Made by a program: the position numbers and the translations under genes. Positions 13,607-29,534 of a DNA stretch of 64,000 bases are shown in pieces. The DNA lies in the NCBI GenBank assembly GCA_038727135.1, contig JAVYWL010000001.1, forward strand, positions 96,001-160,000, in the 5' to 3' direction. Below the pieces are notes generated by a model. It saw only the letters and a list, made by a program, of their open reading frames with translations, was not told where the DNA came from and searched no databases. Source of the DNA: Candidatus Bathyarchaeia archaeon (lineage in GTDB: Archaea > Thermoproteota > Bathyarchaeia > Bathyarchaeales > Bathycorpusculaceae). The number at the start of each line of letters is the position of its first letter. The stretch's first letter is position 1.

Positions 13607-13762
13607 TTAAAAACCTGGGCTTGGGGAAACCTTGTCGTCGGCGCTTAAGTAGACTGGATAGCCCTTTGTTATGTTGGCTGCTGCTTCAAAGGTTTCGATT
13701 ATGGCGTTTGGGTCGTCTGTTTCGCCAGCAGCCATCCAAGGTTTTCCCGTCAAATCAGCCAT
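13607..13762 (-). pseudogene. Truncated capsid cement/decoration-like gene (51 aa, not in ORF track)
   Basis: MADLTGKPWMAAGETDDPNAIIETFEAAANITKGYPVYLSADDKVSPSPGF*; TFEAAANITKGYPVYL resembles DUF2190-type N-termini; GGAG-like RBS upstream. Confidence 0.55.
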
Positions 13763-13792
13763 GTGCTTTCACTCCATCTTTTTCTTTTGGTT

Positions 13793-13972
13793 TCAGCCAA
13801 TTCGTCTTGGCTTACTCCCAGCCACACGAAGTGACCGTAATTCGGGATGTGAATAACATGAAATGTGGAAATGGTTGCCTTGGGCGTCTGTAATGTAGCC
13901 TTCAACAGCATTGTCTATGAGCTTACCACACGCCTTGCATTTTCCAACTATAAAGCTGGGTTTCTCACTCAT
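13793..13972 (-). CDS. Small viral zinc-finger protein (59 aa, not in ORF track)
   Basis: MSEKPSFIVGKCKACGKLIDNAVEGYITDAQGNHFHISC...; CxxC...HxxC pattern; GAGG upstream. Confidence 0.65.
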   Translation of the reverse strand: MSEKPSFIVGKCKACGKLIDNAVEGYITDAQGNHFHISCYSHPELRSLRVAGSKPRRIG

Positions 13973-13985
13973 TATTTATTCCTCT

Positions 13986-15002
13986 TTACATGGCGTAAAC
14001 ACGGCTGCTAAGCCTAAAGCTGGTTTGGGCGGTTCCGCCATTTCGATATGCTACACGCACATAACGCAAGGTTATGGCATGCTGCTGTATAGATGCCACC
14101 TGCACCGTTGAGCCGTCAGGATTTGTAACCGCTTGAGTTGCTTGATTACGCACTGTAACCCAAGTTGAGCCGTCTGGGCTTTCCTGAATCATTAAAGTGC
14201 CAGCTTGATCGCTGACCGCATGGACGTTAATAAAGGCGTAATGGTCGTAGGGTGAACTGCTGCTTATCTGCGTGTCCCGAGAAGTGCCAGTAAAGGAAGC
14301 GTTAGCTCCAAGCGCAGTTGTGGAATCCGCGTAAGGCGTGGCCAAGAGACGGGCTGAAGGCACAATTATGCCTATTCTGTTGGTTCCGGCGGCGAGGGCT
14401 CCAGCATGTAATATGGGTATGCCAACGTTTGCTTGGGCTCCGCCAGAGCCTACGCCGAGCCATGTTCCAACAAGCTCCGGGTAAACAGCTACAAGGTCTA
14501 TTTGGCTTGTGCCTGTGCTGAGGTTTTTGAGGCTTATGGATAACGGCTTGTTGGGTATTTTGCTTCCTTGGTATGGTCCGTAGAAGGTTCCGTTAACCCA
14601 TATTACTATGGCGTCTGGTTCCCAGAGGATTACGAAAACGTTGTAGCTGGTTTCTGTGATGGAAACTGCTGTTATTCCTTCTGTGGGGTCAACGGTGCTT
14701 TTGTAGCGTAGGTTTCCTCCGCTCCAGACAACATAATCGTTTAAGCCGTCGTCAAAGCCTATGCGCAAGTTTCCAGAAGCAGAAGCCTTTGCAACAACTA
14801 TTAAAATGCCGTAGAGAAACTTCCTTTTGCTTCTAACTTCTGTGTTGGCTCCTGAAAGCGAAAGAATGCTGTCCGCGAGGCTAGGCGAACCAGCAATAAT
14901 ATCCCACTGTTCAAGGCTGTCAAAGTCATCTCGGAACACGTAACGCCCAGAAATTGCAGCCTGCCCAACAGGCTCTGGAATATTAGCCAGCTTTTCAGCC
15001 AA
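13986..15002 (-). CDS. Putative virion protein with a concanavalin-A/LamG-like beta-sandwich domain
   Basis: FRDDFDSL...YNVFVILWEPDAIVIWVNG; TTG start at 15002 with AGGAGAG upstream, overlapping the prohead protease stop. Confidence 0.55.
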   Translation of the reverse strand: MAEKLANIPEPVGQAAISGRYVFRDDFDSLEQWDIIAGSPSLADSILSLSGANTEVRSKRKFLYGILIVVAKASASGNLRIGFDDGLNDYVVWSGGNLRYKSTVDPTEGITAVSITETSYNVFVILWEPDAIVIWVNGTFYGPYQGSKIPNKPLSISLKNLSTGTSQIDLVAVYPELVGTWLGVGSGGAQANVGIPILHAGALAAGTNRIGIIVPSARLLATPYADSTTALGANASFTGTSRDTQISSSSPYDHYAFINVHAVSDQAGTLMIQESPDGSTWVTVRNQATQAVTNPDGSTVQVASIQQHAITLRYVRVAYRNGGTAQTSFRLSSRVYAM

Positions 15003-16290
15003 CAGCCTTTCTCTCCTTAAGCTTCCAAATAGCACGGCGAATGTCTTGGCACATCCGCTGCATACCCAAAGTGCTATGCTCAACCGCTGGGCTTGGCAGT
15101 AACCCTTCAAGAATTGAAATGGCTTCTTGAACGGGTATCATGAGTTCTTTGGGCTTTTGGATAAGGCTTTCGGAAATGCTGGCTTGAGTTTGCTTGGCCT
15201 TTAATTCTGCAACTTGTTTTTCCAGTTCTTGAATTTTCGCCATTAGGGATTCTTTCGCTTTTTCGCATGGCAACTTTTCCTGTGTTTGTGTTGCTTCTTG
15301 GGTTTCGCTGCAAACTTCGCTTTCTATCCCGGCCTCTTTGGCGTGAGCGCACAGATGCCTTTTAGCCTCGGCCCTCTCTTCAGGCGTTAAATCTGTTTGG
15401 GATAATCGTGCCAAGGCATTTCGTAGATGAGGCAGGTCTAAGCTGCCATCAGCCTTGTGATGGGGCAAATGCCTAAGCGTTCTTGGAACAGTTTTGCCTT
15501 GCTCGTCCTTATGTCCGCCTTTGCTGATGACGGCAAAAGCTGAATCTGGCAAATCGTTAATGTAGGATGTATCCCACTCCGCTTCTTTCACATTTCGCCC
15601 ATGCTCCAAACTTTCTAAAACTTGAATATTGGTTTCGGGTATGCCCGGCACAGCCACAAGGCTTAACTCTGCATTATGCAAGCCATGAGGCACTTTGCCA
15701 TCTAAAATGTCTAATGTTTCGTAGTCTGCGCCTACGCTTACATGCTGTATTAAGCCTTTACGGATTTTCTCGGCTGTTTCATCATCGTAGATTTCAGCCT
15801 CATACCAAAGATTGGCGCCATCCCACTCGGTTTTTGTGACTTTACCAACCGCGTTTGGAACAGCCACATGCTCAATGTAGACTGGCGCAGAAACAAGCTT
15901 CTGAGCGAAGTTTTGAAGCTCTTCAGGCGTGTAAATGTTAAAATTTCTGCTCATGCCGGCAGTCATGGCTATGCCTTTAATGCGTAGTGGCTTGTCAACA
16001 ATCTTCTCCAAAACCTTGAAGGGCAGAATAGCGCTTACATGCTCCTTAACTACTGCTTCACGGTGCTTCTCAAACCAAGCCTTAGCCTTCTCAACAGTCC
16101 AGCTCTTAGCTTTGTCAAAAAGATAGCTCTGCACTGTTGTTTTGTCTTCGCCCTTAAGCTTGCCTATAACGGCTTTAATGCCTTCATCTTCGCTAAGCGT
16201 TATGGTGCGAAAACTGTTTTGCTCAAAATCTTCTGGATCACGGTGTCCAGAACGAATGTATTGGTCGGTTTCTTCCCAAGGCAGAGCCAA
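14995..16290 (-). CDS. Caudoviral prohead protease/scaffold-like protein
   Basis: IKGIAMTAGMSRN..YTPEEL, VYIEH, HVSVG, ELSLVAVPG; then INDLPDSAFA...LPHH...HLRNALAR domain and a coiled coil. Confidence 0.8.
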   Translation of the reverse strand: MALPWEETDQYIRSGHRDPEDFEQNSFRTITLSEDEGIKAVIGKLKGEDKTTVQSYLFDKAKSWTVEKAKAWFEKHREAVVKEHVSAILPFKVLEKIVDKPLRIKGIAMTAGMSRNFNIYTPEELQNFAQKLVSAPVYIEHVAVPNAVGKVTKTEWDGANLWYEAEIYDDETAEKIRKGLIQHVSVGADYETLDILDGKVPHGLHNAELSLVAVPGIPETNIQVLESLEHGRNVKEAEWDTSYINDLPDSAFAVISKGGHKDEQGKTVPRTLRHLPHHKADGSLDLPHLRNALARLSQTDLTPEERAEAKRHLCAHAKEAGIESEVCSETQEATQTQEKLPCEKAKESLMAKIQELEKQVAELKAKQTQASISESLIQKPKELMIPVQEAISILEGLLPSPAVEHSTLGMQRMCQDIRRAIWKLKERKAVG

Positions 16291-16371
16291 AACCCGCCTT
16301 TCACCTGCTCTGCCCTATAAAAATATATGTTACAAAACATAAATTGAATTATACAATAGGATGGTCAAAAA

Positions 16372-16536
16372 GTGGCAAGAAAATACATTGTTCGGGTTGT
16401 TTTAAGCCCACAACACAAAGAACTATTAGACAGAATATGCGAAAAACTTGGACAAAGCGAAAGCGAAACACTACGCATAGCATTTTTACAATATGCAGAA
16501 AAACTAAGCCTGATAACGGAGAAAGTTCACAGCTGA
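16372..16536 (+). CDS. Ribbon-helix-helix (CopG-like) protein, 54 aa (not in ORF track)
   Basis: MARKYIVRVVLSPQHKELLDRICEKLGQSESETLRIAFLQY. Confidence 0.75.
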   Translation: MARKYIVRVVLSPQHKELLDRICEKLGQSESETLRIAFLQYAEKLSLITEKVHS

Positions 16537-16558
16537 AAAACGTTGCAGTGATTATGGT

Positions 16559-17314
16559 TTATTTGGATCGAACTCCTCCAACTATACACAAAATACTTGG
16601 GATGGTGGTAACTATGAGCAAGGAAATGGGGTTGATTAGTGTAAGAACCCCACCAAGTATGGCCAATCGAAATGCAGATTTACCCCTTCTTGCAAAGTCC
16701 CATGCAATTAAATTAAGGATTAAACCTACGAATCCTGGTAATGTGATCACAATGAGAGAAAAGGAGATTAAAGGATGCGCCATTAAAGATAGAAATGTTG
16801 ATCCGAATGTTACTACAAATGTAGTGAATGCCCACCTAAAAACTTCCCATATTATAGTTGGGCGTTTTTCACTTAGATGTCCGATCCATAAAATAAACCA
16901 AAACATGGGCGCAATCATAAAATATAGCACTACAACCCATGGAGCGACCACCCATACCTCAGCGAAAAGTGAAAATGATAGTGTCCAGACAAAGGTGCCA
17001 GCGACGAAGCTGAATAATAGAAGTTTACTGCCCGGTTTAGGTTTATTTGAGTTTGTGAGTTCCCTATTAGCAAAAAGTAAACAAATACAGCCCAAAACAA
17101 GAAAAGAACTCCCTGTTGCGATGAGAATTGGATAGTCAAATGACAATTGGATTTTAAATTCCCACAAACCCCAAGCTTCTACCTTTTCAGTTAAAACATT
17201 TAGGAATTGATCCACTTCCTTCCATGCATGAAAGATAGCAACCGCCAAAATCAAAAAGAATAAAAGTATAAAAGCAATCCCCGTTATCCAATAGACCCTT
17301 CTATTCGCCCACAT
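16559..17314 (-). CDS. Polytopic membrane protein of unknown function (cargo)
   Basis: About 7-8 hydrophobic segments, AT-rich. Confidence 0.7.
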   Translation of the reverse strand: MWANRRVYWITGIAFILLFFLILAVAIFHAWKEVDQFLNVLTEKVEAWGLWEFKIQLSFDYPILIATGSSFLVLGCICLLFANRELTNSNKPKPGSKLLLFSFVAGTFVWTLSFSLFAEVWVVAPWVVVLYFMIAPMFWFILWIGHLSEKRPTIIWEVFRWAFTTFVVTFGSTFLSLMAHPLISFSLIVITLPGFVGLILNLIAWDFARRGKSAFRLAILGGVLTLINPISLLIVTTIPSILCIVGGVRSK

Positions 17315-17394
17315 TGAACATCATTTTAAGATTTCTACTTACATCAGCATAAGTTTTAACTAAAAATTGTTTCGAAATGATCATTTAACCATAA

Positions 17395-17495
17395 GCATGC
17401 GAAAGCTAGGACATAGCGATAAGTGAAACCCTACGCCAAGCAATCCTCACCACGCTGAAAAGTTAAATTTAATGACGAAAAAGCTCCATAGATAA
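17395..17495 (+). pseudogene. Frameshifted copy of the 3' half of the RHH gene at 16372-16536
   Basis: Pieces CE.LGHS / SETLRQAIL / AEKLNLMTKKLHR* align with CEKLGQSESETLRIAFL..AEKLSLITEKVHS*. Confidence 0.7.
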
Positions 17496-17516
17496 GGTAA
17501 TTTATTTAAGATTAAA

Positions 17517-18236
17517 CTACGTCGAACTTCGAGCTAAACTTTTAAAAACGCTCTTTTCCGCCTCTTTCCACGTTACATAAGCATCATGTAGCGCCATTAT
17601 TTCATTGTCTGATAGTTGATCGATTTTAAAATTACCATTATCCATTTTCATTGTCCATATATCTACAGGCTCGCCTAGACCATAAGCACCTATATCGATA
17701 GCATCTTTTATAACCCTATAAGCCACAAGTTTGCCTTTTTCCGTATCTATATCGCTTGAATAATAGTTTCGCAGTAACGTATAAGCAAAAGTATCACCTA
17801 TACCAGTGCATGCGTAACCTAGCTCATCAAGGAGCTCATCCGCGCAGTCTGGAGCTATGTGCCAGATCCTATATCCTTTGTCGCCCTCATGTGTGCATAT
17901 TAAAATATCGGCAAGCGGAGCACCTTTTGCGTTACCGTGAAATGCCTTGTGCCTCTCAATTTCACTTTTCATTATTTGGAAAAGATTTTGTCTCAATTCT
18001 TCTCTTGTTTTAATATCCAGACCTTTAGATAAGCCTTCAGCAAAATTTTTAATTAAATCTCGGCATCTTTGAACCGTGCCAACAGATCCGGAAGCACCAA
18101 AAACAACATTCGAACCTAACTTAAAAATTTTCTGAATTTTTTGTCTAACAGGTCCTCCAGACGACAATGCAGTTGCTTGTCCATCAGAAGCTATCACTAC
18201 TCCATCCTTGCATTTCAAAGCGATAATTAATGTCAT
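17517..18236 (-). CDS. Proteasome beta/HslV-like Ntn hydrolase without propeptide
   Basis: M-T1LIIALKCKDGVVIASD17...QK35IF..GASGS matches the Thr1/Asp17/Lys33 pattern; YACTGIG at the GSG position. Confidence 0.85.
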   Translation of the reverse strand: MTLIIALKCKDGVVIASDGQATALSSGGPVRQKIQKIFKLGSNVVFGASGSVGTVQRCRDLIKNFAEGLSKGLDIKTREELRQNLFQIMKSEIERHKAFHGNAKGAPLADILICTHEGDKGYRIWHIAPDCADELLDELGYACTGIGDTFAYTLLRNYYSSDIDTEKGKLVAYRVIKDAIDIGAYGLGEPVDIWTMKMDNGNFKIDQLSDNEIMALHDAYVTWKEAEKSVFKSLARSST

Positions 18237-18673
18237 TTGATCACCTTGATGTCTATTATAGAATTTACTGCATACTCCGGGTATTTCTCATAAATATGCC
18301 TAAGAAGGTCTATGAAACCCTTACTTATAACCGTCTTTTTTATTTCCTTCATCTTCGCAACTATTTCTTGATTCATATTTTGCAAAATTTTTTTAGATTT
18401 ATCAGCTCCTTGTGGAGTGACCTTATAATATGACCAATAAGATGGAAGAAATTTTATGGTTGTTAACAAGTTTTCTCTTATGAGAGTATTAAGATCATTA
18501 TAAACATCAAAACTGCAAGGTCCATAGAGATACGGTTCAAAAATATAGAAGTTCTCGAGTTTAAGCTCTTTAGATAATAGAAATAGTCCCTTCATTATTT
18601 GCAGTGGACTTACAACATTTGGTTCACTTACAGGCAAGTATATGTATGAAAGGAGAATATCCTCGCGCTTCAA
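18233..18673 (-). CDS. Winged-helix protein, Panacea/SocA (DUF4065)/YwgA-like
   Basis: LQIMKGLFLL...FEPYLYGPCSFDVYNDL...YKVTPQG...LLRHIYEKYPEY; ATGA overlap with the Ntn hydrolase. Confidence 0.65.
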   Translation of the reverse strand: MKREDILLSYIYLPVSEPNVVSPLQIMKGLFLLSKELKLENFYIFEPYLYGPCSFDVYNDLNTLIRENLLTTIKFLPSYWSYYKVTPQGADKSKKILQNMNQEIVAKMKEIKKTVISKGFIDLLRHIYEKYPEYAVNSIIDIKVIK

Positions 18674-18776
18674 GGCACAATCCCTTCGATTCCTTTAATT
18701 AGAGTAAGGTTAACATTTTCTATTTAAATATTAATTTACAACGCTAATCTGCCAAAACTTAAAAAATCAACTTGGA

Positions 18777-19172
18777 CTAACCACGTGGTCGGCGGAAAAC
18801 AATTTTTTGCTTATTTTCGCGAAAAGTAATGTCAAAAAACTTGAATACGGAATCTCTGCCTAAAACTACGTAAGGTATAGCTTCAGGATTATAAGGCACA
18901 TAAGCTGGAAAATCTTTGAATCCCACAATTGGTGAAGACCCTTTCATAATATAAATATCGACTTTCGTTATAAAAGCCTGAAATTTTCCTCCGGCACCGA
19001 CAGCTGAATCTTCCTTGACTTTGGGTAAAGATAGCATATCTGCAAATTCAAATGGTATGAAAGTGGTTGTAGATCCAGAATCAATAAGACCTATTGTGCT
19101 TACTGAGGCTTGACCTGACGCCAATCTAACATGAACCATTGGAAGGCGTAAAAAATGATTTGTATTAGGCAT
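18777..19172 (-). CDS. Retropepsin-like (clan AA) aspartic protease
   Basis: GLIDSGSTTTFIP catalytic motif and VVLGRD; frame open upstream to a CTG at 19226. Confidence 0.85.
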   Translation of the reverse strand: MPNTNHFLRLPMVHVRLASGQASVSTIGLIDSGSTTTFIPFEFADMLSLPKVKEDSAVGAGGKFQAFITKVDIYIMKGSSPIVGFKDFPAYVPYNPEAIPYVVLGRDSVFKFFDITFRENKQKIVFRRPRG

Positions 19173-19239
19173 TTGATATGAAAGATAACGAAACGTTATA
19201 GCGCCTCGAAATCTTCTCGAGAACAGTTTTTATCTACCT

Positions 19240-19443
19240 TTAAAGAAGCATTACCTGGTCCGCAGGAACCTTTAAGACAAGCGGTTCCCGATCTGGATAT
19301 TTTTCTTTAGCTTTTTGAAAGACTTCCTTCCCTTTGTCACCCGTAGCAACTACCTGATCACCCACAATAGCTATCCATTTGCCAACGTATTTCCCTAGAT
19401 CAGGCATGGACATTAGACACTGGTATTCATTTTTTTTGGACAT
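19240..19443 (-). CDS. DUF5678-like small protein
   Basis: KYVGKWIAIVGDQVVATG...KAKEKYP. Confidence 0.75.
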   Translation of the reverse strand: MSKKNEYQCLMSMPDLGKYVGKWIAIVGDQVVATGDKGKEVFQKAKEKYPDREPLVLKVPADQVMLL

Positions 19444-19467
19444 TTTAATCATCTCAATAATTTAATA

Positions 19468-19659
19468 CTATTTTGTAGTAGTGTTTATAGCTTTCTCTTT
19501 AATAACTTTATTTCCTTTCGGAGAACTATTAATCCATAGTAACATTGCTTCTTCAATAGCTTCTGTGATGTTTCCTTTCCGCATTCCCTTCCTTCTGAAA
19601 ACTTCCTCTCTAAATTTTTTGTCGATTTCTTCTCTAACTTTTACATTTAATTTGCCCAT
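19468..19659 (-). CDS. RHH-type DNA-binding protein
   Basis: MGKLNVKVREEIDKKFREEVFRRKGMRKGNITEAIEEAMLLW. Confidence 0.75.
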   Translation of the reverse strand: MGKLNVKVREEIDKKFREEVFRRKGMRKGNITEAIEEAMLLWINSSPKGNKVIKEKAINTTTK

Positions 19660-19764
19660 TTTCTTCACCTTAGAATGCATGTTATATAGAGAAATGTAGA
19701 TATCCACATATAAATATTTCTACGTTATAATCGTGATTTACAAGAAATAACTATATATTTTATG

Positions 19765-20424
19765 CTACACCCGCAACTCAAAATTTGCTTTCGCGTTTTC
19801 AAGCATTTTTAAGAAGCTCATTTTAAGCCCTATTTTCCAGTAGCCTTGTATATCTGAGCGGTATAGGTAGATTATGTTGTCTTGTCTTAAGTTTTTTAAT
19901 GCTTCGAGAACTTCGTCCGGGTTTGCTTTAATTTTTTCTGCGAGTTCAAACAGGTCTTTGACTAGGATAAATTTTGAGCCTGTTTCGTTGTAATGTTTTA
20001 GCAATACTTCTACTACTTCCTTTTCCACATTTTCTAAGCCTGAATTTTGAAGCCATAAACTAATCGGAATTTGTTTAGTGGTTTTTGGCTGGTTAGTTTC
20101 TATTTTCTTTTTATTTTCTTTTGATCTTTTTTCTACTTTCTTTCGATAATCTATTATATTATTGTATACGAAATCCAAATACTTAACAAATTCAACCCCA
20201 GAATCAGTCAAAAACCAAAAATCGCCATTTTTCAAGGCTAAACCATACCTTTCCATGTTCTTCAAATACCGCCAAACGTAGTTCTGGCTTTTTCCGCTTC
20301 TCTCTGCTAGGTCGCAGCAGCGTCCACCACCATCAAACAACATGTAAAGAAGCGTTACTGTGAAGCCTCTCACACGCCCAAGGGCAGTAGAAGTAGTAGA
20401 TAATAAGGTATAATTAACAGCCAA
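19765..20424 (-). CDS. Viral protein with two winged-helix domains (possible replication or regulatory protein)
   Basis: DLAERSGKSQNYVWRYLKNMERYGL and ELAEKIKANPDEVLEALKNLRQDNII. Confidence 0.6.
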   Translation of the reverse strand: MAVNYTLLSTTSTALGRVRGFTVTLLYMLFDGGGRCCDLAERSGKSQNYVWRYLKNMERYGLALKNGDFWFLTDSGVEFVKYLDFVYNNIIDYRKKVEKRSKENKKKIETNQPKTTKQIPISLWLQNSGLENVEKEVVEVLLKHYNETGSKFILVKDLFELAEKIKANPDEVLEALKNLRQDNIIYLYRSDIQGYWKIGLKMSFLKMLENAKANFELRV

Positions 20425-21926
20425 AAAATCATCTCACAAACTCTATTTCTGAAGCCTCGCTCAGTTATAGCGTAAAGCCTCTTCTGATAGCTTTCAAACT
20501 CCTCCTCAGTCATCAGAATAATGTGTTCGGGTTCTTCTTTGGCTGAGTGCATCAACCTTCCAAACCTTTGGCTCTCCTGCATTCTACTACCATACAAGAA
20601 GGCTACCTCTATGACACGCTCTATTCTTGGAAGGCTTATTCCCTCATCGCCAACACGACTAACAACACATGCTTGGCTTTCCCTTATAATTTCAAGCCTA
20701 TCCCTTGTTTCTCCGTAAACAAACGGTATATTGAAGGTTTTGGCTATCTTCTCGCCCAAATCAAGCCAATCACAGAAAATCAATGTTTTAACGGGTATTT
20801 GCAGCAGCTCGCCAAGCTTACGCATTTTCTCACGGTTGTCGCTTAAAATGTAAACTCGAAAAGTTGGTTCTCTTACCACCTGAAGCCTAATCAATTCTTC
20901 CCAGCTCATGCCCACCGGAAAGCCTGTTAGGGCTATGATGTAGTTTTCACGTCCATCCTCACGGTAGGGCGAACCGCTGAAGCCCATGCGATATTTGGTT
21001 TTCAAAGTTGCTAAGCGGACAAACGTGTTGGCTGGGAGATGCTGACATTCGTCAAAAATGATTAGGACGTATTCATTGTTTTTGACCTTGTCATAGGCGT
21101 GGTATGTGACAACTTCTATTTCATGGCGGTATTGGGGTATGTATTTGGCTATGCGTTCAAGCCACTGCTCCTTAAGCGTTAAAGTAGGCACAACAACGAG
21201 TTTTCTGCCCTTAACCCTCGCAAGGGCATATATTCCAAATAGGCTTTTTCCGCTTCCGAATGCCCAGAAAACTCCGATGGCTCCTTTATTCAGAAATTCA
21301 TTCCATGCATATTGCTGATAGCTTCGCAGTTTGATTCCATCATAGGGCCTAAGGTCTTCTTCTTTTACTGGAACGGGCATGAAGGGCAAAGTGCCGTCCT
21401 CAATCATCTGGGCGATTAGCTTAAACTCGTAGCCCTTCTTTATGCGGAGCCTGTCCTCGCCTTCACGCCTCGTTATAAAACGCTTGTATCGGCGTAGGGC
21501 TTCTTCTTGCAGTTCCTTGCCAGTCAGCAGCATGCCATCATAAACTTTGAAGGGCATGGGCTTAGCGAACTTGAACTTTTCTTCTAGGCTTGGCGGGATT
21601 TCGCTGAACCACTTGACGTAGCGGTTTACGACGAAGATGTTGTAGCTTTTTGTTGAGCGTTCAAGCCAGCCCATGCTGAAATTAAGCCATTTAGGAGCTA
21701 TAACATACCACTCATTAGCCCTTTTAGGAATAATCACATAAGGCTCCTCAAAGAAAGGTTCTAAAAATTCTCGGCGTATCTGGCTGAAGCGGAAAAGCTC
21801 CATTTTGCGCTCAAAATCGCTTTTAATCTGAGACTGCAAAACATCAATGGAATGCTTAAGTTCATCCAGCTTGGCGAGGGCTTCCATAACGGTTTGGCGA
21901 ACCTCAGCCGTGTTAAACTCGCTCAA
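20370..21926 (-). CDS. SF2 DExH helicase, XPB/Rad25-like; probable frameshift near the C-terminus
   Basis: GSGKS, DECQH, SGSPYREDG, GDEGISLP, QRFGR. Confidence 0.88.
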   Translation of the reverse strand: MSEFNTAEVRQTVMEALAKLDELKHSIDVLQSQIKSDFERKMELFRFSQIRREFLEPFFEEPYVIIPKRANEWYVIAPKWLNFSMGWLERSTKSYNIFVVNRYVKWFSEIPPSLEEKFKFAKPMPFKVYDGMLLTGKELQEEALRRYKRFITRREGEDRLRIKKGYEFKLIAQMIEDGTLPFMPVPVKEEDLRPYDGIKLRSYQQYAWNEFLNKGAIGVFWAFGSGKSLFGIYALARVKGRKLVVVPTLTLKEQWLERIAKYIPQYRHEIEVVTYHAYDKVKNNEYVLIIFDECQHLPANTFVRLATLKTKYRMGFSGSPYREDGRENYIIALTGFPVGMSWEELIRLQVVREPTFRVYILSDNREKMRKLGELLQIPVKTLIFCDWLDLGEKIAKTFNIPFVYGETRDRLEIIRESQACVVSRVGDEGISLPRIERVIEVAFLYGSRMQESQRFGRLMHSAKEEPEHIILMTEEEFESYQKRLYAITERGFRNRVCEMIFWLLIIPYYLLLLLPLGV

Positions 21927-22149
21927 ACCTTAGCCTCCAACAAGCTTCTAATCGGCCTAAAAACCAGAATGAAACCTTAAGATGGAAGGGTCTTGGCAAA
22001 CAAATTATTTGGTTAGCGTTAAATCCGAGCAGCTTTAAGTCTTCTAAACACCACTTGCAGACATGAAGTTGCCTCTCATCATTACCAAAAATAATCAAAA
22101 ACTCTGCCTCGTTACGTGTGAAAGGATAGCATAAAACGCAATGGGTCAC
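21913..22149 (-). CDS. Small hypothetical protein, possible Zn finger
   Basis: CVLC...CKWC; overlaps neighbours in an operon-like run. Confidence 0.5.
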   Translation of the reverse strand: MTHCVLCYPFTRNEAEFLIIFGNDERQLHVCKWCLEDLKLLGFNANQIICLPRPFHLKVSFWFLGRLEACWRLRFERV

Positions 22150-22469
22150 GATTCGCGCCTTCTGCTGAATATTCCCTCAAGGTGCGGCTTTACCTGGTGA
22201 AGTGAAAAAGCGTATTCGATTAGCAATCTCCACAATAGTTTGCTTTTAGCCTCTAAACGCTTGGCTAGTTTAGGTCCAAAAGTTGGGCTTATTTCCAACA
22301 TTTTCTCCACAACCTCAATTATCTCGTCATCTCGTGGACACCAGTCGGCCTCAAACATGCTACGGATGCGAAAATTGTCGTCTTTTGGTAGTTCAAACTC
22401 GATGCGTAATGTGGGATAGTTTGGATTAACCCTGTGAGAATCAACATCTTTGGTCACCCTCAAACGCAT
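22146..22469 (-). CDS. Hypothetical viral protein
   Basis: Part of a tightly packed minus-strand run. Confidence 0.55.
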   Translation of the reverse strand: MRLRVTKDVDSHRVNPNYPTLRIEFELPKDDNFRIRSMFEADWCPRDDEIIEVVEKMLEISPTFGPKLAKRLEAKSKLLWRLLIEYAFSLHQVKPHLEGIFSRRRES

Positions 22470-22478
22470 AAAAAGGCG

Positions 22479-22739
22479 TCAGCCCTGCTGAAGTATGTGG
22501 ACAAAACCCTGAAACTCATCAACCTCTACGGAGTCAACCCTATGCCCTAAGGCTTTGACACACTTTGCTAAGGCCTCGTCGACCTTGCCAACAAACTCCA
22601 CGACCCTTGAACCGCTGAAATAAACAACCTTCGTGATGTTGCCTTCGCCATCAGCCTGATAAAATACTGTTCCAAGCTCGTGCATGCTCTTACGCAGAAG
22701 CTCAGCATCCGTGATTTTGGCTAAAAGCTGAAGCTTCAT
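22479..22739 (-). CDS. Hypothetical viral protein
   Basis: GGAGGGAG upstream, ATGA coupling with the previous gene. Confidence 0.65.
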   Translation of the reverse strand: MKLQLLAKITDAELLRKSMHELGTVFYQADGEGNITKVVYFSGSRVVEFVGKVDEALAKCVKALGHRVDSVEVDEFQGFVHILQQG

Positions 22740-22927
22740 TCAACACTCCCTCCAGCAACAGCCTTCTCAACAACACGCGACTCTACATCAGCCAAAAAGC
22801 CAAGCTTCTCCTCAAGACGCTTAATACGGTGCTCATGATCAGCCAAAACATCAAGCGTATCCCGTAAGGCATAGGCTAAATCCTCAGCAGACTTCGCAAG
22901 AACCTTCAAGTCGCCTTTCTCACTCAT
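22736..22927 (-). CDS. Small coiled-coil viral protein
   Basis: HEHRIKRLEEKLG; 4-nt overlaps on both sides. Confidence 0.6.
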   Translation of the reverse strand: MSEKGDLKVLAKSAEDLAYALRDTLDVLADHEHRIKRLEEKLGFLADVESRVVEKAVAGGSVE

Positions 22928-23115
22928 CCGCTGGCCTCCCTTTTAGCTTTAGGCAATCTGCTTGTGGGATGTGGAATTGGATTCTCTTCCTTGTAGGATT
23001 TCAGCCCAAGCTTGATGATATATTCGATGAATGTGCTGCGTTTTGTTATTCCTCGCAGCTCGTCTATCTCCCGTAGTAGTTCAGGCTCGATTGTGAATCC
23101 AATTTTGACTTTCAA
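22924..23115 (-). CDS. RHH (CopG-like) regulator
   Basis: KVKIGFTIEPELLREIDELRGITKRSTFIEYII. Confidence 0.8.
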   Translation of the reverse strand: MKVKIGFTIEPELLREIDELRGITKRSTFIEYIIKLGLKSYKEENPIPHPTSRLPKAKREASG

Positions 23116-23246
23116 GGCGATGTTCTCCTAAAGGTTCTTTGGATACTTAGTATACATCGAAGAATTTATAAATCTAATTCCACTAATCATACTTGTAATA
23201 CCAAAAACGAAATAAACCACAAACAACAAAAAAGGATGGAACCGAA

Positions 23247-23666
23247 ATGAAAACCCTAAAAATCTCGGACGACGTTCACCAGAAGCTCACAGCCTTACTG
23301 GGCGAGTTAACAGCCCAAACAATGAAAATGCAAACTTATCAAGACGCAATAGAAGCCCTCCTAACCCAATCAGTAATAGTCCCGCCAGAGCTACTCCGTG
23401 AAGTAGAAGAGTTCATAACAAAAAACAAGCATAAAGGCTACACACGAAAAGAAGAGTTCATACGCCAAGCCATACGCTTCTTCCTAAAATGGGAAAGCGA
23501 AGAATACGAATACATAGAAATCCCAAAACAAAAATACGACAAACTAAACAAGGCAGTGAAACAAATGAACACGCCTTACTACAACGCAGAGGAATTCATA
23601 TATGACCAAATAGACAAAATCCTAGAACAATACGAAAAATGGCTAAAAGAAAAAGGAGAATATTGA
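23247..23666 (+). CDS. Multi-RHH regulator, divergent from the viral early operon
   Basis: MKTLKISDDVHQKL and SVIVPPELLREVEEFI...YTRKEEFIRQAIR. Confidence 0.75.
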   Translation: MKTLKISDDVHQKLTALLGELTAQTMKMQTYQDAIEALLTQSVIVPPELLREVEEFITKNKHKGYTRKEEFIRQAIRFFLKWESEEYEYIEIPKQKYDKLNKAVKQMNTPYYNAEEFIYDQIDKILEQYEKWLKEKGEY

Positions 23667-23734
23667 AAACATCAACTAAAATAAGTTCAATAAACAAGAA
23701 ATAGCGCAAGCAAATTACAAGAAAAGGGAATTGC

Positions 23735-23989
23735 GTGGAACAAAAACAGCGTTTATATGAGACATCTGATTATCGAGTAGTAAGTGTAAAGATCGTTAAT
23801 GATAGAATTTATCAGCTTATAGAAATAAGTTCACAATTTTCAAACAGAGAAGAACGTGCCGATTTTCTGCAGAAACTAGTTGAAACTACGGGAGCTATTG
23901 GATTAATAGAGTGGTGGCCAAAAGGCAGCATAGTTAAAAAACCGAGAAATGTCTTTCGATGCATTCTTATCTTTGGCATACGAAAATAA
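23735..23989 (+). CDS. Hypothetical protein
   Basis: 84-aa ORF at the head of the methyltransferase run. Confidence 0.45.
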   Translation: MEQKQRLYETSDYRVVSVKIVNDRIYQLIEISSQFSNREERADFLQKLVETTGAIGLIEWWPKGSIVKKPRNVFRCILIFGIRK

Positions 23990-24055
23990 TAAGTGCACGA
24001 TCACGTTTATATACGTGATGAGATATCAATAGTGTTAGCACAAGGGATAACCTAT

Positions 24056-24280
24056 ATGGTTGCAAATAATGATGCTAACACATCTTCATTCCTATCTCAG
24101 AAAGTTAAAAGGATATTAGCTGAAAATCCTGGACTCAGCATAAAAGAAATTGCGAAGGCAGTTGATGTTAACCGCCAATTTATGGCTGGTTTTCTAACAG
24201 CTATGGAAGAAAATGGAGAGATTTGTTCAAGGAAAGTCGGGCCTGCAAGAATATACTTTAACAATGAGGTGAAGAGATGA
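24056..24280 (+). CDS. Winged-helix regulator (possible R-M controller)
   Basis: NPGLSIKEIAKAVDVNRQFMAGFLTAMEENGEICSRKVGPARIY; abuts methyltransferase 1. Confidence 0.75.
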   Translation: MVANNDANTSSFLSQKVKRILAENPGLSIKEIAKAVDVNRQFMAGFLTAMEENGEICSRKVGPARIYFNNEVKR

Positions 24281-25156
24281 ATGAGTGAAAAAGTCGGCTT
24301 TAATGGGCTCACGCCAACAGAATGGACGCGTTTAAGCAAGAGTGTCTGGACTGCACGGGAGGTTAGCTCTCCTCGGGAATGGTATCATCTTGAACATGGC
24401 GCAACCTTCTCGGTAGCCCTAGCGGAGAGAGTCATAAAGATATACACTAAAAAAGGCGACTTAGTGTTAGATCCTTTCCTTGGTGTTGGAACAACATTAG
24501 TTGCCGCTAAAAAACTTGGTAGGAGAGGCATAGGGATAGAACTATACCCAAAATTTGTAGAACTTGCGAAGCAAGTTTTAAGTCAACAGACGCTGGTTGA
24601 AAGCCCAGAGCAGAAGATTATTCAAGGTGACTGTAGGGATCTTTTGCAATGGATAGAGCCAAATAGCGTGCAACTAATGTTTACTTCTCCACCATATGCA
24701 AACTTTATCCATCGCTCAGTTGAAGATAGAGCAAAGACCCACAAAACTTCAAGGCTTGTATTAGATAATAAGTCTGTAGTAAAGCCTTATGGAGATGATC
24801 CAAGAGATTTTGGCAATCTCCCGTATGATGCTTTCATAAAAGAGATTCAAGGTCTTATGGAAAAATTGTATATAGTTACAAAGCCTGGAGGCTATAACAT
24901 TTGGGTGGTCAAAGACCATAGAGATCCGCAAAATGGACGACCATTTATAGATGTTCACTCTGATATAGCACATGCCGGTGAGAGGGCAGGTTTTCTTTAT
25001 CATGATCTTATAATTTGGGACCAAAATGAGCAGCGAAGTCTAGTTTTGTTAGGTTATCCATCAGTTTTCTATGTAAACATAAACCATACCTTCCTAGTAG
25101 TATTAAGGAAACCTCTTACGGAAAATAGAAGGAAATCTTATGAAATTTCCGAATAA
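24281..25156 (+). CDS. DNA amino-methyltransferase 1 (SPPY, likely N4-cytosine)
   Basis: DPFLGVGTT (motif I) followed by TSPPY (motif IV). Confidence 0.9.
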   Translation: MSEKVGFNGLTPTEWTRLSKSVWTAREVSSPREWYHLEHGATFSVALAERVIKIYTKKGDLVLDPFLGVGTTLVAAKKLGRRGIGIELYPKFVELAKQVLSQQTLVESPEQKIIQGDCRDLLQWIEPNSVQLMFTSPPYANFIHRSVEDRAKTHKTSRLVLDNKSVVKPYGDDPRDFGNLPYDAFIKEIQGLMEKLYIVTKPGGYNIWVVKDHRDPQNGRPFIDVHSDIAHAGERAGFLYHDLIIWDQNEQRSLVLLGYPSVFYVNINHTFLVVLRKPLTENRRKSYEISE

Positions 25157-26327
25157 AGAAGAAATATTAAATGTAATACTGAATGCTCAAGATACTACTT
25201 ATCTAACTCATAACTTCCACCCATTTCCAGCCAAGTTTATACCTCAAATTCCAAATTTGATGATAAGGCTGTTTAGTCAGAGAAACGAATGCATATTTGA
25301 CCCTTTTTGCGGTAGCGGAACCACCCTTGTTGAAGCAAAGCTTCTAGGGAGAAATAGCGTAGGTGTCGATATTCACCCTTTAGGAGTTTTTATGGCAAAA
25401 GTTAAAACAACTAAGATACCTGAGGAATGTTTAAAAAAAGTGCCTGACCTTCTAAAAGCGATAGAAATAAAGATAGACGTATTTATTGGGAAACATTATA
25501 AAACCCTTCTTTCTTTTACCGAAAAAGCGGAAAATGAGGATTTGAACTATACACTTCCAAACTTCCCCAGAAGAAATCATTGGTTTCAAGAACATGTTTT
25601 GCACGAACTTGCAATCATAAAATCTTCATTAGTGAAGGATGATTTAAATCCCGATTTACGGGACCTTCTTCTTTTAGCATTTTCATGTATAATAGTTCCA
25701 GTTTCGAATCAAGATAGCGAAACACGATATGCGGCCGTCAAAAAGGAGATTTCACCAAAACAACCCTTTTTGCTTTTCAAGGAAAAAGTGCTGGATATGG
25801 TAAATAGGGTCAAGCTTTTCAATCGGGAAGCGAGTGATTGTGAGGCTAAGGTGTATCTTGCTGATTCAAGGAAACTTGATTTTATTGATGAAAATATTGC
25901 TGACTTCATCATAACGTCCCCGCCGTATCCTAATACATATGATTATTATCTTTATCATAAACTTAGAATGTTTTGGTTAGACATGGATTGGGAAAAAGCG
26001 AAGTTTAATGAAATAGGTTCCAGACTTAGACACTCTAGTCATAGGGAACCAATTGATACATATATAAAAGACATGACCCAATGTTTTGAACATTTTCGCC
26101 GAATTTTAAAACCGCAAAAGTTTTTTGTAATAGTTATTGGCGATTCAATTATCCGAAAGGAATTATGGAAGGGTGATGATGTGGTTTCTGAACTAGCCGA
26201 CAGATCCGGCTTTAAGGTTGTTGATAAAGTTGATTATAATCTCAGTTATGCAAGCAAAACGTTCAATCCAGCATTCAGAAATAAAACTAAGAACGAACAC
26301 ATTATTCTCCTTAAAAACGAAAAGTGA
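25140..26327 (+). CDS. DNA amino-methyltransferase 2 (SPPY, likely N4-cytosine)
   Basis: HPFPAKF, DPFCGSGTT, TSPPY. Confidence 0.9.
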   Translation: MKFPNKEEILNVILNAQDTTYLTHNFHPFPAKFIPQIPNLMIRLFSQRNECIFDPFCGSGTTLVEAKLLGRNSVGVDIHPLGVFMAKVKTTKIPEECLKKVPDLLKAIEIKIDVFIGKHYKTLLSFTEKAENEDLNYTLPNFPRRNHWFQEHVLHELAIIKSSLVKDDLNPDLRDLLLLAFSCIIVPVSNQDSETRYAAVKKEISPKQPFLLFKEKVLDMVNRVKLFNREASDCEAKVYLADSRKLDFIDENIADFIITSPPYPNTYDYYLYHKLRMFWLDMDWEKAKFNEIGSRLRHSSHREPIDTYIKDMTQCFEHFRRILKPQKFFVIVIGDSIIRKELWKGDDVVSELADRSGFKVVDKVDYNLSYASKTFNPAFRNKTKNEHIILLKNEK

Positions 26328-28150: not shown

Positions 28151-28205
28151 GTTTGCGCTGTTTACAAAAATATTAAGGTCTTAGCGAATTTAATTGATGC
28201 TTGAC

Positions 28206-28334: not shown

Positions 28335-28421
28335 CGCTTTGCATATTTTATAATAGGATGGGCCCAATAACCAAGCGGGTAGGCTTCTGATTAAACTTTT
28401 TCACAAATAAAAAAGAAAGTT

Positions 28422-29525: not shown

Positions 29526-29534
29526 GCAGATTTT

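What the first reader, a model, noticed from the sequence alone, without database searches (positions are those of the whole stretch)
17517..18673. Provirus-borne pair: Panacea/SocA-like wHTH coupled to a propeptide-less proteasome-beta homolog
Seen: two AT-rich genes overlap by ATGA (18233-18236). The downstream protein starts M-T and keeps the Thr1, Asp17 and Lys33-equivalent residues of proteasome beta/HslV. It has no propeptide, GSG is replaced by TGIG, the DxxSG motif is missing, and no alpha subunit or AAA ATPase is nearby. The upstream protein has the K.LFLL / PY.YGP.S / YPEY pattern of the DUF4065 (Panacea/SocA)-like winged helix. Known: Panacea domains act as antitoxins for diverse toxins, and SocA is a proteolytic adaptor. 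Inference: a two-gene module that is either a toxin-antitoxin/abortive-infection system with a Thr-protease effector, or a virus-encoded adaptor plus protease (or host-proteasome modifier). I know of no described system with this pairing.
Basis: partly seen in the sequence, partly recalled or inferred. Interest (0 to 1): 0.85.

Follow-up and report, generated by a model that had tools for sequence, protein, structure and literature searches.

The report
Panacea-like protein paired with proteasome-like protease
A small antitoxin-like winged-helix gene and a proteasome-type threonine protease gene form a tightly coupled two-gene unit that recurs across archaea and bacteria, often wedged inside restriction-modification operons, which makes it a credible but untested new toxin-antitoxin or anti-virus module.

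Summary
On the minus strand, a 146-aa winged-helix gene (18233-18673) overlaps by ATGA a 239-aa proteasome-fold gene (17517-18236) that starts Met-Thr and keeps the Thr1/Asp17/Lys33-type residues.

The pair is not a local accident. Of 80 metagenome loci fetched with the small protein, 73 carry the protease gene directly downstream, 4 are cut by a contig end, 2 have it broken, and 1 lacks it.

The small protein misses Pfam's Panacea model. It matches Panacea proteins profile-to-profile (98% probability), and its best fold match is the toxin-binding domain of antitoxin DarG.

The protease sits far from the host's three canonical proteasome genes. It probably belongs to the 'WPH' homologs of Fuchs et al. 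2021, who reported no informative gene context.

The new point is that context. In 13 of 14 scanned loci, the large gene just upstream of the pair is a restriction-modification protein, mostly a type III methyltransferase.

In the window, the pair lies in a strain-specific 15.9-kb integrated element that also carries a type II restriction system.

Best reading (about 0.45): a Panacea-type toxin-antitoxin or abortive-infection module with a threonine-protease effector. This is untested. A host-proteasome modifier is not supported.

The parts
18233..18673 (-). 146-aa winged-helix protein, remote Panacea/SocA (DUF4065) and DarG-C-terminal-domain relative; invariant IMK..F and PY.YGPCSF..Y motifs
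   Evidence: ORF. Family of 97 relatives. Alignment A2. AlphaFold2 pLDDT 93.1. Foldseek best hit 7yk3 B/D (DarTG complex), E 6e-4, TMq 0.65. hhalign vs 19 PF13274 proteins: probability 98.1%, E 1.1e-13. PADLOC PDC-M19A E 7.7e-16.
17517..18236 (-). 239-aa proteasome-fold Ntn hydrolase, Met-Thr start, no propeptide, long C-terminal helix (residues 210-236)
   Evidence: ORF. PF00227 E 5.1e-18. Below all NCBIfam equivalog cut-offs. Alignment A1 with invariant T2, D18, K36, G50. AlphaFold2 pLDDT 92.1. Foldseek matches to 20S alpha and beta chains at E about 1e-13.
18233..18236 (-). ATGA overlap: start codon of the hydrolase gene and TGA stop of the winged-helix gene share bases; the Thr codon (ACN) after ATG supplies the A of TGA
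   Evidence: Sequence. The same zero-offset junction occurs in 66 of 73 paired metagenome loci.
13625..29536 (.). Strain-specific integrated element (about 15.9 kb) that carries the pair; host synteny with three same-genus genomes stops at about 13624 and resumes at 29537
   Evidence: No second att copy found. No strong match to the winged-helix profile (none at E<=0.001) in 13 same-genus genomes.
28422..29525 (-). Integrase (archaeal phage integrase domain) at the right end of the element
   Evidence: PF16795 E 4e-29.
29535..29612 (-). tRNA-Glu (TTC), integration target; relatives carry a 42-43-nt partial copy of its 3' part
24281..28150 (+). Type II restriction-modification operon in the same element: two methyltransferases and a restriction enzyme
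   Evidence: PF01555. PADLOC MTase_II E 1.5e-42 and 6.8e-59; REase_II E 1e-39.
14995..16290 (-). 431-aa protein whose residues 101-229 resemble prohead proteases of archaeal tailed viruses; the only virion-type gene found in the element
   Evidence: tblastn: Pro-Nvie1 'protease/major capsid protein' E 2e-8; Halogranum tailed virus 1 'prohead protease' E 5e-4.

Best explanation
The two genes form a Panacea-type (PanAT-like) two-gene conflict module.

The upstream winged-helix protein is made first, through translational coupling. It binds the proteasome-fold threonine hydrolase. That hydrolase needs only removal of its initiator Met to expose the catalytic Thr, so it has no propeptide safeguard. 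The winged-helix protein keeps it inactive or restricted.

When that control is lost, the hydrolase cuts host or viral protein(s) and stops growth or infection. Loss of control could come from viral shut-off, loss of the element, or attack on the neighbouring restriction system.

The module travels horizontally. It typically lodges inside or next to restriction-modification operons as a second-line or addiction function, as DarTG and PrrC do (the DarTG/PrrC comparison is recalled, not taken from a call).

Shown here: the conserved pairing, the coupling, the homologies, the intact catalytic residues, the restriction-modification and mobile context, and the accessory status in this genus.

Inferred: binding, inhibition, toxicity, the trigger and the substrates.
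For: Pairing:
- 73 of 80 metagenome loci fetched with the winged-helix profile have the hydrolase directly downstream. Four are cut by a contig end, 2 have it broken, and 1 lacks it.
- 66 of those 73 share the ATGA-type overlap.
- 10 of 21 assessable genome loci are paired, in at least five archaeal and five bacterial lineages.

Antitoxin-like partner:
- Foldseek best hit is the DarG C-terminal domain in the DarTG complex 7yk3 (E 6e-4, TMq 0.65).
- 10 of 40 family members hit NCBIfam antitoxin_DarG, best E 2.8e-5.
- hhalign to PF13274 proteins gives 98.1% probability.
- The family profile hits ORFs in 13 of 20 PF13274 loci at E<=0.01.
- The GP(C) of YGPCSF is invariant. It aligns with the GPV motif that Kurata et al. 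call critical for neutralisation (PMC8832971, passages).

Effector: catalytic T2, D18, K36 and G50 are invariant in 40 of 40 sequences.

Context:
- The upstream large same-strand neighbour is a restriction-modification protein in 13 of 14 scanned loci. Nine have type III methyltransferase as best hit, 2 have type II (with type III next), 1 is type IIG, and 1 is a type I S subunit.
- Of 6 downstream neighbours scanned, 2 are type III restriction enzymes, 1 is BrxL, and 1 is a type I/II methyltransferase.
- Pfam tally over 109 neighbours in 38 loci: N6_N4_Mtase 13, ResIII 9, N6_Mtase 5, Methylase_S 4.
- The same domain is fused to HsdS C-termini.

Mobility:
- It lies in a 15.9-kb tRNA-Glu-linked element.
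- There is no strong match in 13 same-genus genomes.
- The tree mixes archaea and bacteria.

Complex prediction is reported under Tried and rejected, as the tool instructs for weak passes: score 0.54 against a best control of 0.00, graded 'weak support'.
Against: - No toxicity, binding or defence data exist.
- 11 of 21 assessable genome loci carry a related hydrolase without the winged-helix gene. These are a deltaproteobacterial clade, two Micrarchaeota, L021 and L022. A constitutive toxin should not persist this way unless those clades are controlled otherwise.
- Proteasome-like proteases are usually self-compartmentalised and not obviously toxic.
- The small protein also resembles DNA-binding PadR/MarR winged helices. 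12 of 40 members hit PF03551, many Foldseek hits are MarR-type, and the family median pI is 8.8. It could therefore be mainly a regulator.
- The window's own protein fails Pfam PF13274.
- In the window, the pair is not inside a restriction operon but 5.6 kb from one.
- No relatives were found in phage, viral-contig or (for the hydrolase) plasmid collections.
Confidence: 0.45

Rival explanations
1. Adaptor plus protease. The winged-helix protein acts like SocA, as a proteolytic adaptor or regulator. It delivers specific substrates to the proteasome-like protease rather than inhibiting it. Substrates could be the restriction subunit of the surrounding restriction-modification system, giving restriction alleviation or establishment control, or a viral protein.
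For: - SocA, the founding Panacea protein, is a proteolytic adaptor (PMC8832971, passages).
- The pair sits exactly between mod and res genes with overlapping or abutting junctions in many loci. This position suits control of the restriction subunit.
- Hydrolase clades that lack the winged-helix gene fit an accessory regulator better than an essential antidote.
Against: - About half of the longer loci, and the window itself, have no restriction gene directly adjacent, so a restriction-specific job is unlikely to be general.
- Kurata et al. found direct type II neutralisation, not adaptor action, for the PanA proteins they tested.
- No unfoldase is associated.
Confidence: 0.22
2. Regulator plus enzyme. 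The winged-helix protein is a PadR/MarR-like DNA-binding repressor of the operon. The hydrolase is a stand-alone peptidase, amidase or ligase with a non-conflict role (as connectase is a ligase). The two do not form a functional complex.
For: - 12 of 40 members hit PadR, best E 1.4e-5.
- JGI names some members PadR or YwgA.
- MarR/PadR folds fill the Foldseek list after DarG.
- The protein is basic, pI 8.98.
Against: - The strict one-to-one coupling with ATGA overlap across two domains of life is unusual for a mere repressor.
- The same domain is fused to HsdS, where DNA-operator binding makes little sense.
- The best fold and profile matches are protein-binding antitoxin domains.
- No convincing operator palindrome lies upstream, only short AT-rich ones.
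Confidence: 0.15
3. Housekeeping or virus-serving proteasome part: an extra beta-type subunit or a virus-encoded modifier that enters or remodels the host 20S proteasome, with the small protein as an assembly chaperone.
For: - It has the proteasome fold.
- The host has a canonical 20S set it could join.
- The element carries one prohead-protease-like gene.
Against: - It is far below the PsmB/PsmA equivalog cut-offs and on a long separate branch.
- No match to its winged-helix partner's profile at E<=0.001 in 13 same-genus genomes; the hydrolase itself was not searched for in them.
- It occurs in bacteria that are not known to have proteasomes, such as the Fusobacteriales and Dehalococcoidia MAGs. 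The absence of a proteasome there was not tested.
- No relatives were found in viral collections.
Confidence: 0.04

Closest known systems
PanAT toxin-antitoxin systems (Panacea/DUF4065 antitoxin PanA with diverse toxins; Kurata et al. 2022, PMC8832971; passages read, supplements closed)
   Same: - It is a two-gene operon with a small Panacea-type winged-helix protein next to an unrelated enzyme.
- The GP-x signature is conserved.
- It is mobile and patchily distributed in bacteria and archaea.
- It shows profile-profile homology (98.1%) and a direct tblastn link to WP_050049451.1, a homolog named in that paper.
   Different: - The window protein is not detected by the Pfam model those authors used.
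- The partner is a proteasome-fold hydrolase, a word absent from that paper's main text (0 occurrences).
- This subfamily is faithful to one partner rather than promiscuous.
- Toxicity is untested.
DarTG (antitoxin DarG C-terminal, DarT-binding domain; PDB 7yk3)
   Same: - It is the best structural match of the winged-helix protein, with weak but recurrent sequence hits (10 of 40).
- DarTG is also reported next to type I restriction genes (recalled, not checked here).
   Different: There is no macrodomain and no ADP-ribosyltransferase. The partner is a Thr hydrolase, and the domain stands alone.
WPH ('widespread proteasome homolog') and its neighbour PHD, from Fuchs, Alva and Lupas 2021 (PMC8665760; Results and Discussion read)
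   Same: - It has the proteasome fold with Thr1/Asp17/Lys33 and no propeptide.
- It is similar to both alpha and beta subunits.
- It has a long C-terminal helix.
- It is spread over many archaeal and bacterial phyla.
- A deltaproteobacterial sister clade fits PHD.
   Different: - Membership could not be verified, because the representative accession is not retrievable with these tools and the supplements are closed.
- That paper states that no informative genomic context or co-occurrence was found. Here a fixed partner and a restriction-modification context are shown.
20S proteasome beta subunit (PsmB) and HslV
   Same: It has the Ntn fold, an N-terminal Thr nucleophile, and Asp17/Lys33/Gly47 equivalents.
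   Different: - It has no propeptide.
- Ser129, Asp166 and Ser169 are not conserved as such.
- No alpha subunit or AAA partner is present.
- It scores 55.6 bits against a 224-bit cut-off for PsmB and 17.6 against 137 for HslV.
- It is an accessory, mobile gene.
Restriction-embedded second-line modules such as PrrC in the EcoprrI hsd locus (recalled, not from a call)
   Same: It is an effector gene inserted between restriction-modification genes. A related binding domain is fused to the specificity subunit.
   Different: The effector is a protease-fold protein rather than an anticodon nuclease. No functional link to the restriction complex has been shown.

Membership tests
20S proteasome beta subunit (archaeal PsmB, TIGR03634) | Score above the equivalog cut-off | tested here: not met
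   55.6 bits against a cut-off of 224.
20S proteasome beta subunit (archaeal PsmB, TIGR03634) | Propeptide removed autocatalytically to expose Thr1 | tested here: not met
   The protein starts Met-Thr. Profile position 1 aligns with residue 1 in most of the 150 listed representatives. The host's own beta genes have N-terminal extensions.
20S proteasome beta subunit (archaeal PsmB, TIGR03634) | Catalytic Thr1, Asp/Glu17, Lys33, Gly47 | tested here: met
   T2, D18, K36 and G50 are invariant in 40 of 40 sequences.
20S proteasome beta subunit (archaeal PsmB, TIGR03634) | Groups with housekeeping subunits in a tree | tested here: not met
   40 family rows are separated from the 3 canonical G000 subunits by a branch with SH-aLRT 100. 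Only these three canonical sequences were used.
HslV (TIGR03692 / NF003964) | Score above cut-off; HslU partner | tested here: not met
   16.6 and 17.6 bits against cut-offs of 157.75 and 137, covering the N-terminal 53 residues only. No AAA gene was found among the scanned neighbours.
WPH (Fuchs et al. 2021) | Clusters with representative WP_040339656.1 in CLANS/HHpred | not testable with these tools
   The accession is named in the paper, but its sequence is not retrievable and the supplements are closed.
WPH (Fuchs et al. 2021) | Descriptive features: no propeptide, no large insertion, long C-terminal helix, similarity to both alpha and beta, wide archaeal and bacterial spread | tested here: met
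   A subgroup has an 18-residue insertion after helix 1.
Panacea / SocA domain (Pfam PF13274, DUF4065) | Match to the Pfam model above the gathering score | tested here: not met
   The window protein has no hit at E<=0.1. There is no PF13274 match in G000. 7 of 40 family members hit at E<=0.05, best 2.2e-5.
Panacea / SocA domain (Pfam PF13274, DUF4065) | Homology by profile-profile comparison, and the conserved K-L-x-K/F-L and GP(V) motifs | tested here: met
   hhalign gives 98.1%, E 1.1e-13, over 123 columns. IMKGLFL and YGPC are invariant. The GPV motif is described in PMC8832971.
Type II toxin-antitoxin system (PanAT type) | Conserved adjacent gene pair, usually overlapping | tested here: met
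   73 of 80 loci are paired, and 66 of those 73 have the ATGA-type overlap.
Type II toxin-antitoxin system (PanAT type) | Toxin inhibits growth; antitoxin neutralises by binding | not testable with these tools
   This needs expression and pull-down experiments. The complex prediction was only a weak pass.
DarG antitoxin (NF048014) | Macrodomain plus C-terminal DarT-binding domain; score above cut-off | tested here: not met
   13.6 bits against a cut-off of 250. Only profile positions 183-280 match, and there is no macrodomain. The fold match is limited to the C-terminal domain.
Provirus | Integrase, att sites, and a set of virion genes (capsid, portal, terminase) | tested here: inconclusive
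   An integrase sits beside tRNA-Glu, and there is one prohead-protease-like gene. No second att copy was found. No other virion gene was found among the ORFs scanned with Pfam, PHROGs or PADLOC.

The most novel reading that the evidence does not exclude
This is the first immune or addiction effector of the proteasome fold. A propeptide-less threonine protease is held in check by a dedicated Panacea-type protein and carried inside restriction-modification operons of both archaea and bacteria. It would fire when a virus disables restriction or shuts off host expression (a guard-type backup). The HsdS-Panacea fusions would be the tethered version of the same logic. It would also give the orphan WPH family its first function.
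Probability: 0.3. Interest if true: 0.9.

Novelty: new variant of a known kind. Interest (0 to 1): 0.78.

Why it matters
Fuchs et al. 2021 described 22 orphan proteasome homologs and could find no gene context that hinted at a function. Here one of these families gets two things:
- a fixed partner from a known antitoxin superfamily;
- a recurrent home inside restriction-modification operons.

This turns 'function unknown' into a directly testable hypothesis, using toxicity/rescue and virus-challenge assays with a Thr1 mutant.

If the hypothesis holds, it would have three consequences:
- It would add a new enzymatic class, the Ntn threonine protease, to toxin-antitoxin and defence effectors.
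- It would extend the reach of the Panacea domain beyond what its Pfam model detects.
- It would provide a module shared by archaea and bacteria.

Earlier notes of this scan report other proteasome-like hydrolases beside restriction systems with other partners. The phenomenon may therefore be broader than this one pair.

Tried and rejected
- **Complex prediction.** Hydrolase plus winged-helix protein, each given as a 40-row alignment. Median score 0.54, best of 3 controls 0.00, graded 'weak support'. The mark was reached by 58 of 80 solved complexes and 2 of 110 mismatched pairs; at 0.60 or under, it was reached by only 7 of those 80 solved complexes and by both mismatches. The runs agree in at least 96% of contacts, and partner pLDDT is at least 87. 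No interface was given. I do not count this as evidence.
- **Expression.** 16 runs hold part of the stretch, all hot-spring or sediment metagenomes kept as contigs. The one true RNA run (X16) covers only 19148-19300, not the pair. X9 and X13 are probably DNA. Nothing can be said about transcription.
- **Second att site.** Neither an exact-match search nor a short-word blastn search with the tRNA-Glu region found a copy in the window.
- **Operator search upstream of the pair.** Only short AT-rich palindromes were found.
- **Viral origin.** There were no relatives of either protein in IMG/VR contigs by pattern scan. The hydrolase has none in 50,697 phage records by tblastn.
- **Plasmids.** The hydrolase has no match. 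The winged-helix protein has only 5 distant hits at 31-35% identity, none next to a hydrolase.
- **PDB by sequence for the winged-helix family.** Nothing below E 0.06.
- **Literature.**
  - 'proteasome-like' together with 'anti-phage' gave 0 papers.
  - 'PDC-M19' occurred in none of the 20 listed papers.
  - 'widespread proteasome homolog' was found only in the 2021 paper among those listed.
  - Kurata 2022 and Ernits 2023 have 0 occurrences of 'proteasome' in their main text.
  - The supplements of these papers and of Fuchs 2021 are closed. They could list this pairing or the WPH members.
- **Protein Atlas.** The nearest clusters are unnamed. One cluster at score 0.95 has PF13274 on 21% and PadR on 15% of its members. 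This is a lead only.
- **A housekeeping role.** Rejected on accessory status and mobility.
Full report
**1. What is in the sequence**

Two genes lie on the minus strand. Gene A (18233..18673) encodes 146 aa and has a TTG start. Gene B (17517..18236) encodes 239 aa and has an ATG start. They overlap by four bases: TCAT on the + strand at 18233-18236, which is ATGA on the coding strand.

Because gene B always begins Met-Thr (ATG ACN), its second codon supplies the A of gene A's TGA stop. The overlap is therefore tied to the catalytic threonine codon.

The stretch is AT-rich: GC is 0.374 at 17001-18000 and 0.342 at 18001-19000, against about 0.46 in the host flanks.

**2. The downstream protein**

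- It matches Pfam Proteasome (PF00227) at E 5.1e-18, 65.8 bits.
- It is far below every NCBIfam equivalog cut-off:
  - archaeal beta, 55.6 against 224 bits;
  - bacterial beta, 29.2 against 191.9;
  - archaeal alpha, 24.8 against 219;
  - HslV, 17.6 against 137.
- An AlphaFold2 model built on 40 relatives is confident (pLDDT 92.1). It shows the proteasome sandwich plus a long C-terminal helix, residues 210-236.
- Foldseek matches 20S alpha and beta chains about equally, at E about 1e-13 and 14-22% identity.
- In the 40-sequence alignment, T2, D18, K36 and G50 are invariant. So are family-specific residues C9, Q20, S25, W125, D130, Y141 and W223.
- The GSG position reads G-x-G with a variable middle residue. 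The DxxSG position reads (D/E)IGAYG.
- The genome holding the window (G000; 1.55 Mb, 94.7% complete) has three canonical proteasome genes elsewhere, scoring 205, 186 and 184 bits. This gene is the fourth PF00227 match, at 65.8 bits.
- In a quick maximum-likelihood tree of 43 rows, the family is separated from those three canonical subunits by a branch with SH-aLRT 100. Only these three canonical sequences served as outgroup.
- A profile search of 1.84 billion representatives found 76 clusters at E<=1e-30, 455 at E<=1e-10 and 1644 at E<=1e-3. In most of the 150 listed, profile position 1 aligns with residue 1, meaning no propeptide.

**3. The upstream protein**

- It has no Pfam hit at E<=0.1, and the PF13274 model finds nothing in G000.
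- PADLOC gives PDC-M19A at E 7.7e-16 (N-terminal 114 of 294 profile positions) and the C-terminal tail of a type I specificity-subunit model at E 2.3e-9.
- PHROGs gives phrog_14939 at E 7.1e-14.
- NCBIfam gives a weak hit to the C-terminal part of antitoxin DarG, E 0.031.
- The AlphaFold2 model (pLDDT 93.1) is a winged helix followed by a helical bundle.
- Its best PDB fold matches are chains B and D of 7yk3, the DarG C-terminal domain in the M. tuberculosis DarTG complex (E 6e-4, TMq 0.56-0.65). MarR/PadR-type winged helices follow at E>=6e-3.
- At family level, of 40 members: 12 hit PadR, 10 hit DUF4364, 7 hit SocA_Panacea (best 2.2e-5), 10 hit antitoxin_DarG (best 2.8e-5), and 1 hits SocA_antitoxin.
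- I collected PF13274 proteins from 14 of 301 genomes of the same phylum and aligned 19 of them. hhalign against the family alignment gave probability 98.1%, E 1.1e-13, over 123 columns. IMKGLFL lies on the K-L-x-K-L-x-F-L helix, and FEPYLYGPCSFEVY lies on the W-x-Y-GP-x-s-x-x-V segment.
- Conversely, the family profile hits ORFs in 13 of the 20 PF13274 loci at E<=0.01 in a 539-ORF set. The five strongest Pfam scorers were not hit.
- tblastn also links the window protein to WP_050049451.1 of a Halanaeroarchaeum plasmid (E 2e-7, 31% identity, 86% coverage). NCBI annotates it as a SocA-domain antitoxin, and Kurata et al. name it as a DUF4065 homolog.
- The invariant G51-P52-C53 corresponds to the GPV motif that those authors call critical for neutralisation (passages only).

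The protein is not a member by the Pfam criterion.

**4. The pairing**

- The lists of relatives of the two proteins share many contig lengths, and one case has adjacent locus tags.
- A scan of one genome per species found 22 loci with a relative of the hydrolase.
  - In 10, the winged-helix gene ends at or just before the hydrolase start: L001, L002, L003, L005, L006, L009, L010, L011, L013, L020.
  - L004 is cut by a contig end.
  - The other 11 lack it: a deltaproteobacterial clade at about 31-34% identity (L012, L014-L019), two Micrarchaeota (L007, L008), L021, and the fragment L022.
- Searching metagenomes with the winged-helix profile gave 230 relatives, of which the best 80 were kept.
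  - 73 have the hydrolase directly downstream, 66 of them with the zero-offset ATGA-type junction.
  - 4 end within 150 nt of the gene.
  - 2 have a fragmented hydrolase downstream (L074, L083).
  - 1 (L086) has none within 2.3 kb.
- More distant winged-helix relatives have no hydrolase beside them. These include the plasmid proteins, two relatives in the order, and the PF13274 loci.

The fidelity therefore belongs to this subfamily. The tree suggests that the partner is widespread and was lost in a few clades. Archaeal and bacterial rows are interleaved.

**5. The context elsewhere**

I took the two nearest ORFs on each side of the pair in 38 loci that had at least 2.5 kb of flank, giving 109 ORFs (L043 and L044 were dropped as duplicates of L001). 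The commonest Pfam families were:

| Pfam family | ORFs |
|---|---|
| N6_N4_Mtase | 13 |
| ResIII | 9 |
| SWI2_SNF2 | 7 |
| DEAD | 6 |
| N6_Mtase | 5 |
| Methylase_S | 4 |
| Eco57I | 4 |
| HSDR_N_2 | 3 |
| MmeI_Mtase | 3 |
| BrxL_ATPase | 1 |
| GmrSD_N | 1 |

I then scanned with PADLOC 14 large same-strand ORFs that end at the start of the winged-helix gene:
- 9 have a type III methyltransferase as best hit (down to E 6e-299).
- 2 have a type II methyltransferase as best hit, with type III next.
- 1 is a type IIG enzyme.
- 1 is a type I specificity subunit.
- 1 has no hit.

Of 6 ORFs that begin at the hydrolase stop: 2 are type III restriction enzymes (E 1e-152 and 1.8e-140), 1 is BrxL, 1 is a type I/II methyltransferase, and 2 have no hit at 1e-10.

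In many loci the arrangement is therefore mod - winged helix - hydrolase - res, in one direction, with overlapping or abutting junctions.

The same winged-helix domain is fused to the C-terminus of HsdS in two metagenome proteins and in Sulfolobus islandicus plasmid pYN01.

I found this restriction link before reading earlier notes of this scan. Those notes report other proteasome-like hydrolases beside restriction systems with different partners. They are unchecked leads, not support.

**6. The context in the window**

- Host synteny with three same-genus genomes ends at about 13624 and resumes at 29537, the 3' end of tRNA-Glu. The pair therefore lies in a 15.9-kb insertion.
- The insertion's right end carries an integrase (PF16795, E 4e-29).
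- Relatives carry 42-43-nt partial copies of this tRNA, but no second copy is detectable in the window.
- The element also holds:
  - a type II restriction-modification operon at 24281-28150;
  - an XPB/ResIII-type helicase;
  - small RHH and wHTH proteins;
  - one gene whose residues 101-229 resemble prohead proteases of archaeal tailed viruses.
- I found no other virion gene among the scanned ORFs. 'Integrated mobile element, perhaps a decayed provirus or satellite' is as far as the data go.
- A strong match to the winged-helix profile occurs in G000 only (E 2.4e-59), plus a partial one in G056 (E 6.5e-17), among 61 related genomes. None of the 13 same-genus genomes has one (several of them are incomplete).

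**7. How it most likely works**

Shown:
- a dedicated, translationally coupled pair;
- a partner from a protein-binding antitoxin superfamily;
- a hydrolase with intact catalytic residues and no propeptide;
- horizontal mobility;
- residence in restriction and defence neighbourhoods.

Inferred:
- The small protein binds and restrains the hydrolase.
- Release leads to proteolysis that arrests the cell or the virus.
- The module acts as an addiction or second-line defence element.

I put this at about 0.45.

The main rivals are:
- a SocA-like adaptor that feeds substrates, possibly the Res subunit, to the protease (0.22);
- a PadR-like repressor with an unrelated enzyme (0.15).

The strongest argument against a simple toxin is that whole clades keep the hydrolase without the partner.

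The 1:1 complex prediction scored 0.54 against 0.00 for the controls, but it is graded weak. I list it only under Tried and rejected.

**8. Comparison with what is known, and novelty**

The hydrolase family was probably already described as WPH, with the deltaproteobacterial sister as PHD, by Fuchs, Alva and Lupas 2021. I read that paper's Results and Discussion. I could not verify membership, because the representative sequences and supplements are out of reach. That paper states that no genomic context or co-occurrence suggested a function.

The Panacea papers do not mention proteasomes in their main text. Their survey used the Pfam model, which misses this family.

My literature searches found no description of this pairing or of its restriction-modification context.

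I therefore rate it a new variant of a known kind: a PanAT-like module with a new effector fold and a new, dedicated antitoxin-like subfamily. It is of high interest because it makes an orphan protease family testable.

Noticed in passing
window 18777-19452 (minus strand): Directly upstream of the pair, a DUF5678 gene (19240..19452, E 7.7e-18) precedes a weak retropepsin-like aspartyl protease (18777..19172, PF13650 E 3.4e-4, below cut-off; PADLOC PDC-M52B E 0.0014). This could be a second 'small protein plus protease' pair.
   Followed up: no
window 24281-28150: A type II restriction-modification operon lies in the same element: two N6/N4 methyltransferases and a 608-aa restriction enzyme. 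The enzyme has no Pfam hit but matches PADLOC REase_II at E 1e-39.
   Followed up: partly
window 29535-29612 and relatives G003, G005, G012: tRNA-Glu(TTC) is an integration hotspot in this genus. G003, G005 and G012 each have a 42-43-nt partial copy of its 3' part, and G003 and G012 have a different insertion beside the same flank. G012 has an 83%-identical integrase. The window's element has lost, or never had, a detectable second copy.
   Followed up: partly
window 14995-16290 (minus strand): A 431-aa protein has a prohead-protease-like middle part (residues 101-229) and a coiled-coil tail. It overlaps by 116 nt the next ORF (13986..15110), which has a discoidin/jelly-roll-like C-terminus. 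These may be remains of a capsid module.
   Followed up: partly
L140 (S. islandicus plasmid pYN01), P0218, P0219: Type I specificity subunits carry the same winged-helix/Panacea-like domain at their C-terminus. No hydrolase gene lies nearby in pYN01. This suggests that the domain can tether some partner to a restriction complex.
   Followed up: partly
L007, L008 (Micrarchaeota): Here the hydrolase lacks the winged-helix gene. It is followed in both loci by a Cys/His-rich repeat protein (HPGC.HSGC repeats) and a conserved gene of about 230-245 aa. This may be a different partner set.
   Followed up: no
window 20370-21926 (minus strand): An XPB/Rad25-like ResIII helicase (PF04851 E 3.3e-13, ERCC3_RAD25_C E 2.5e-12; weak PADLOC PbeA hits) overlaps a wHTH gene (19765..20424) in the same element.
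   Followed up: no
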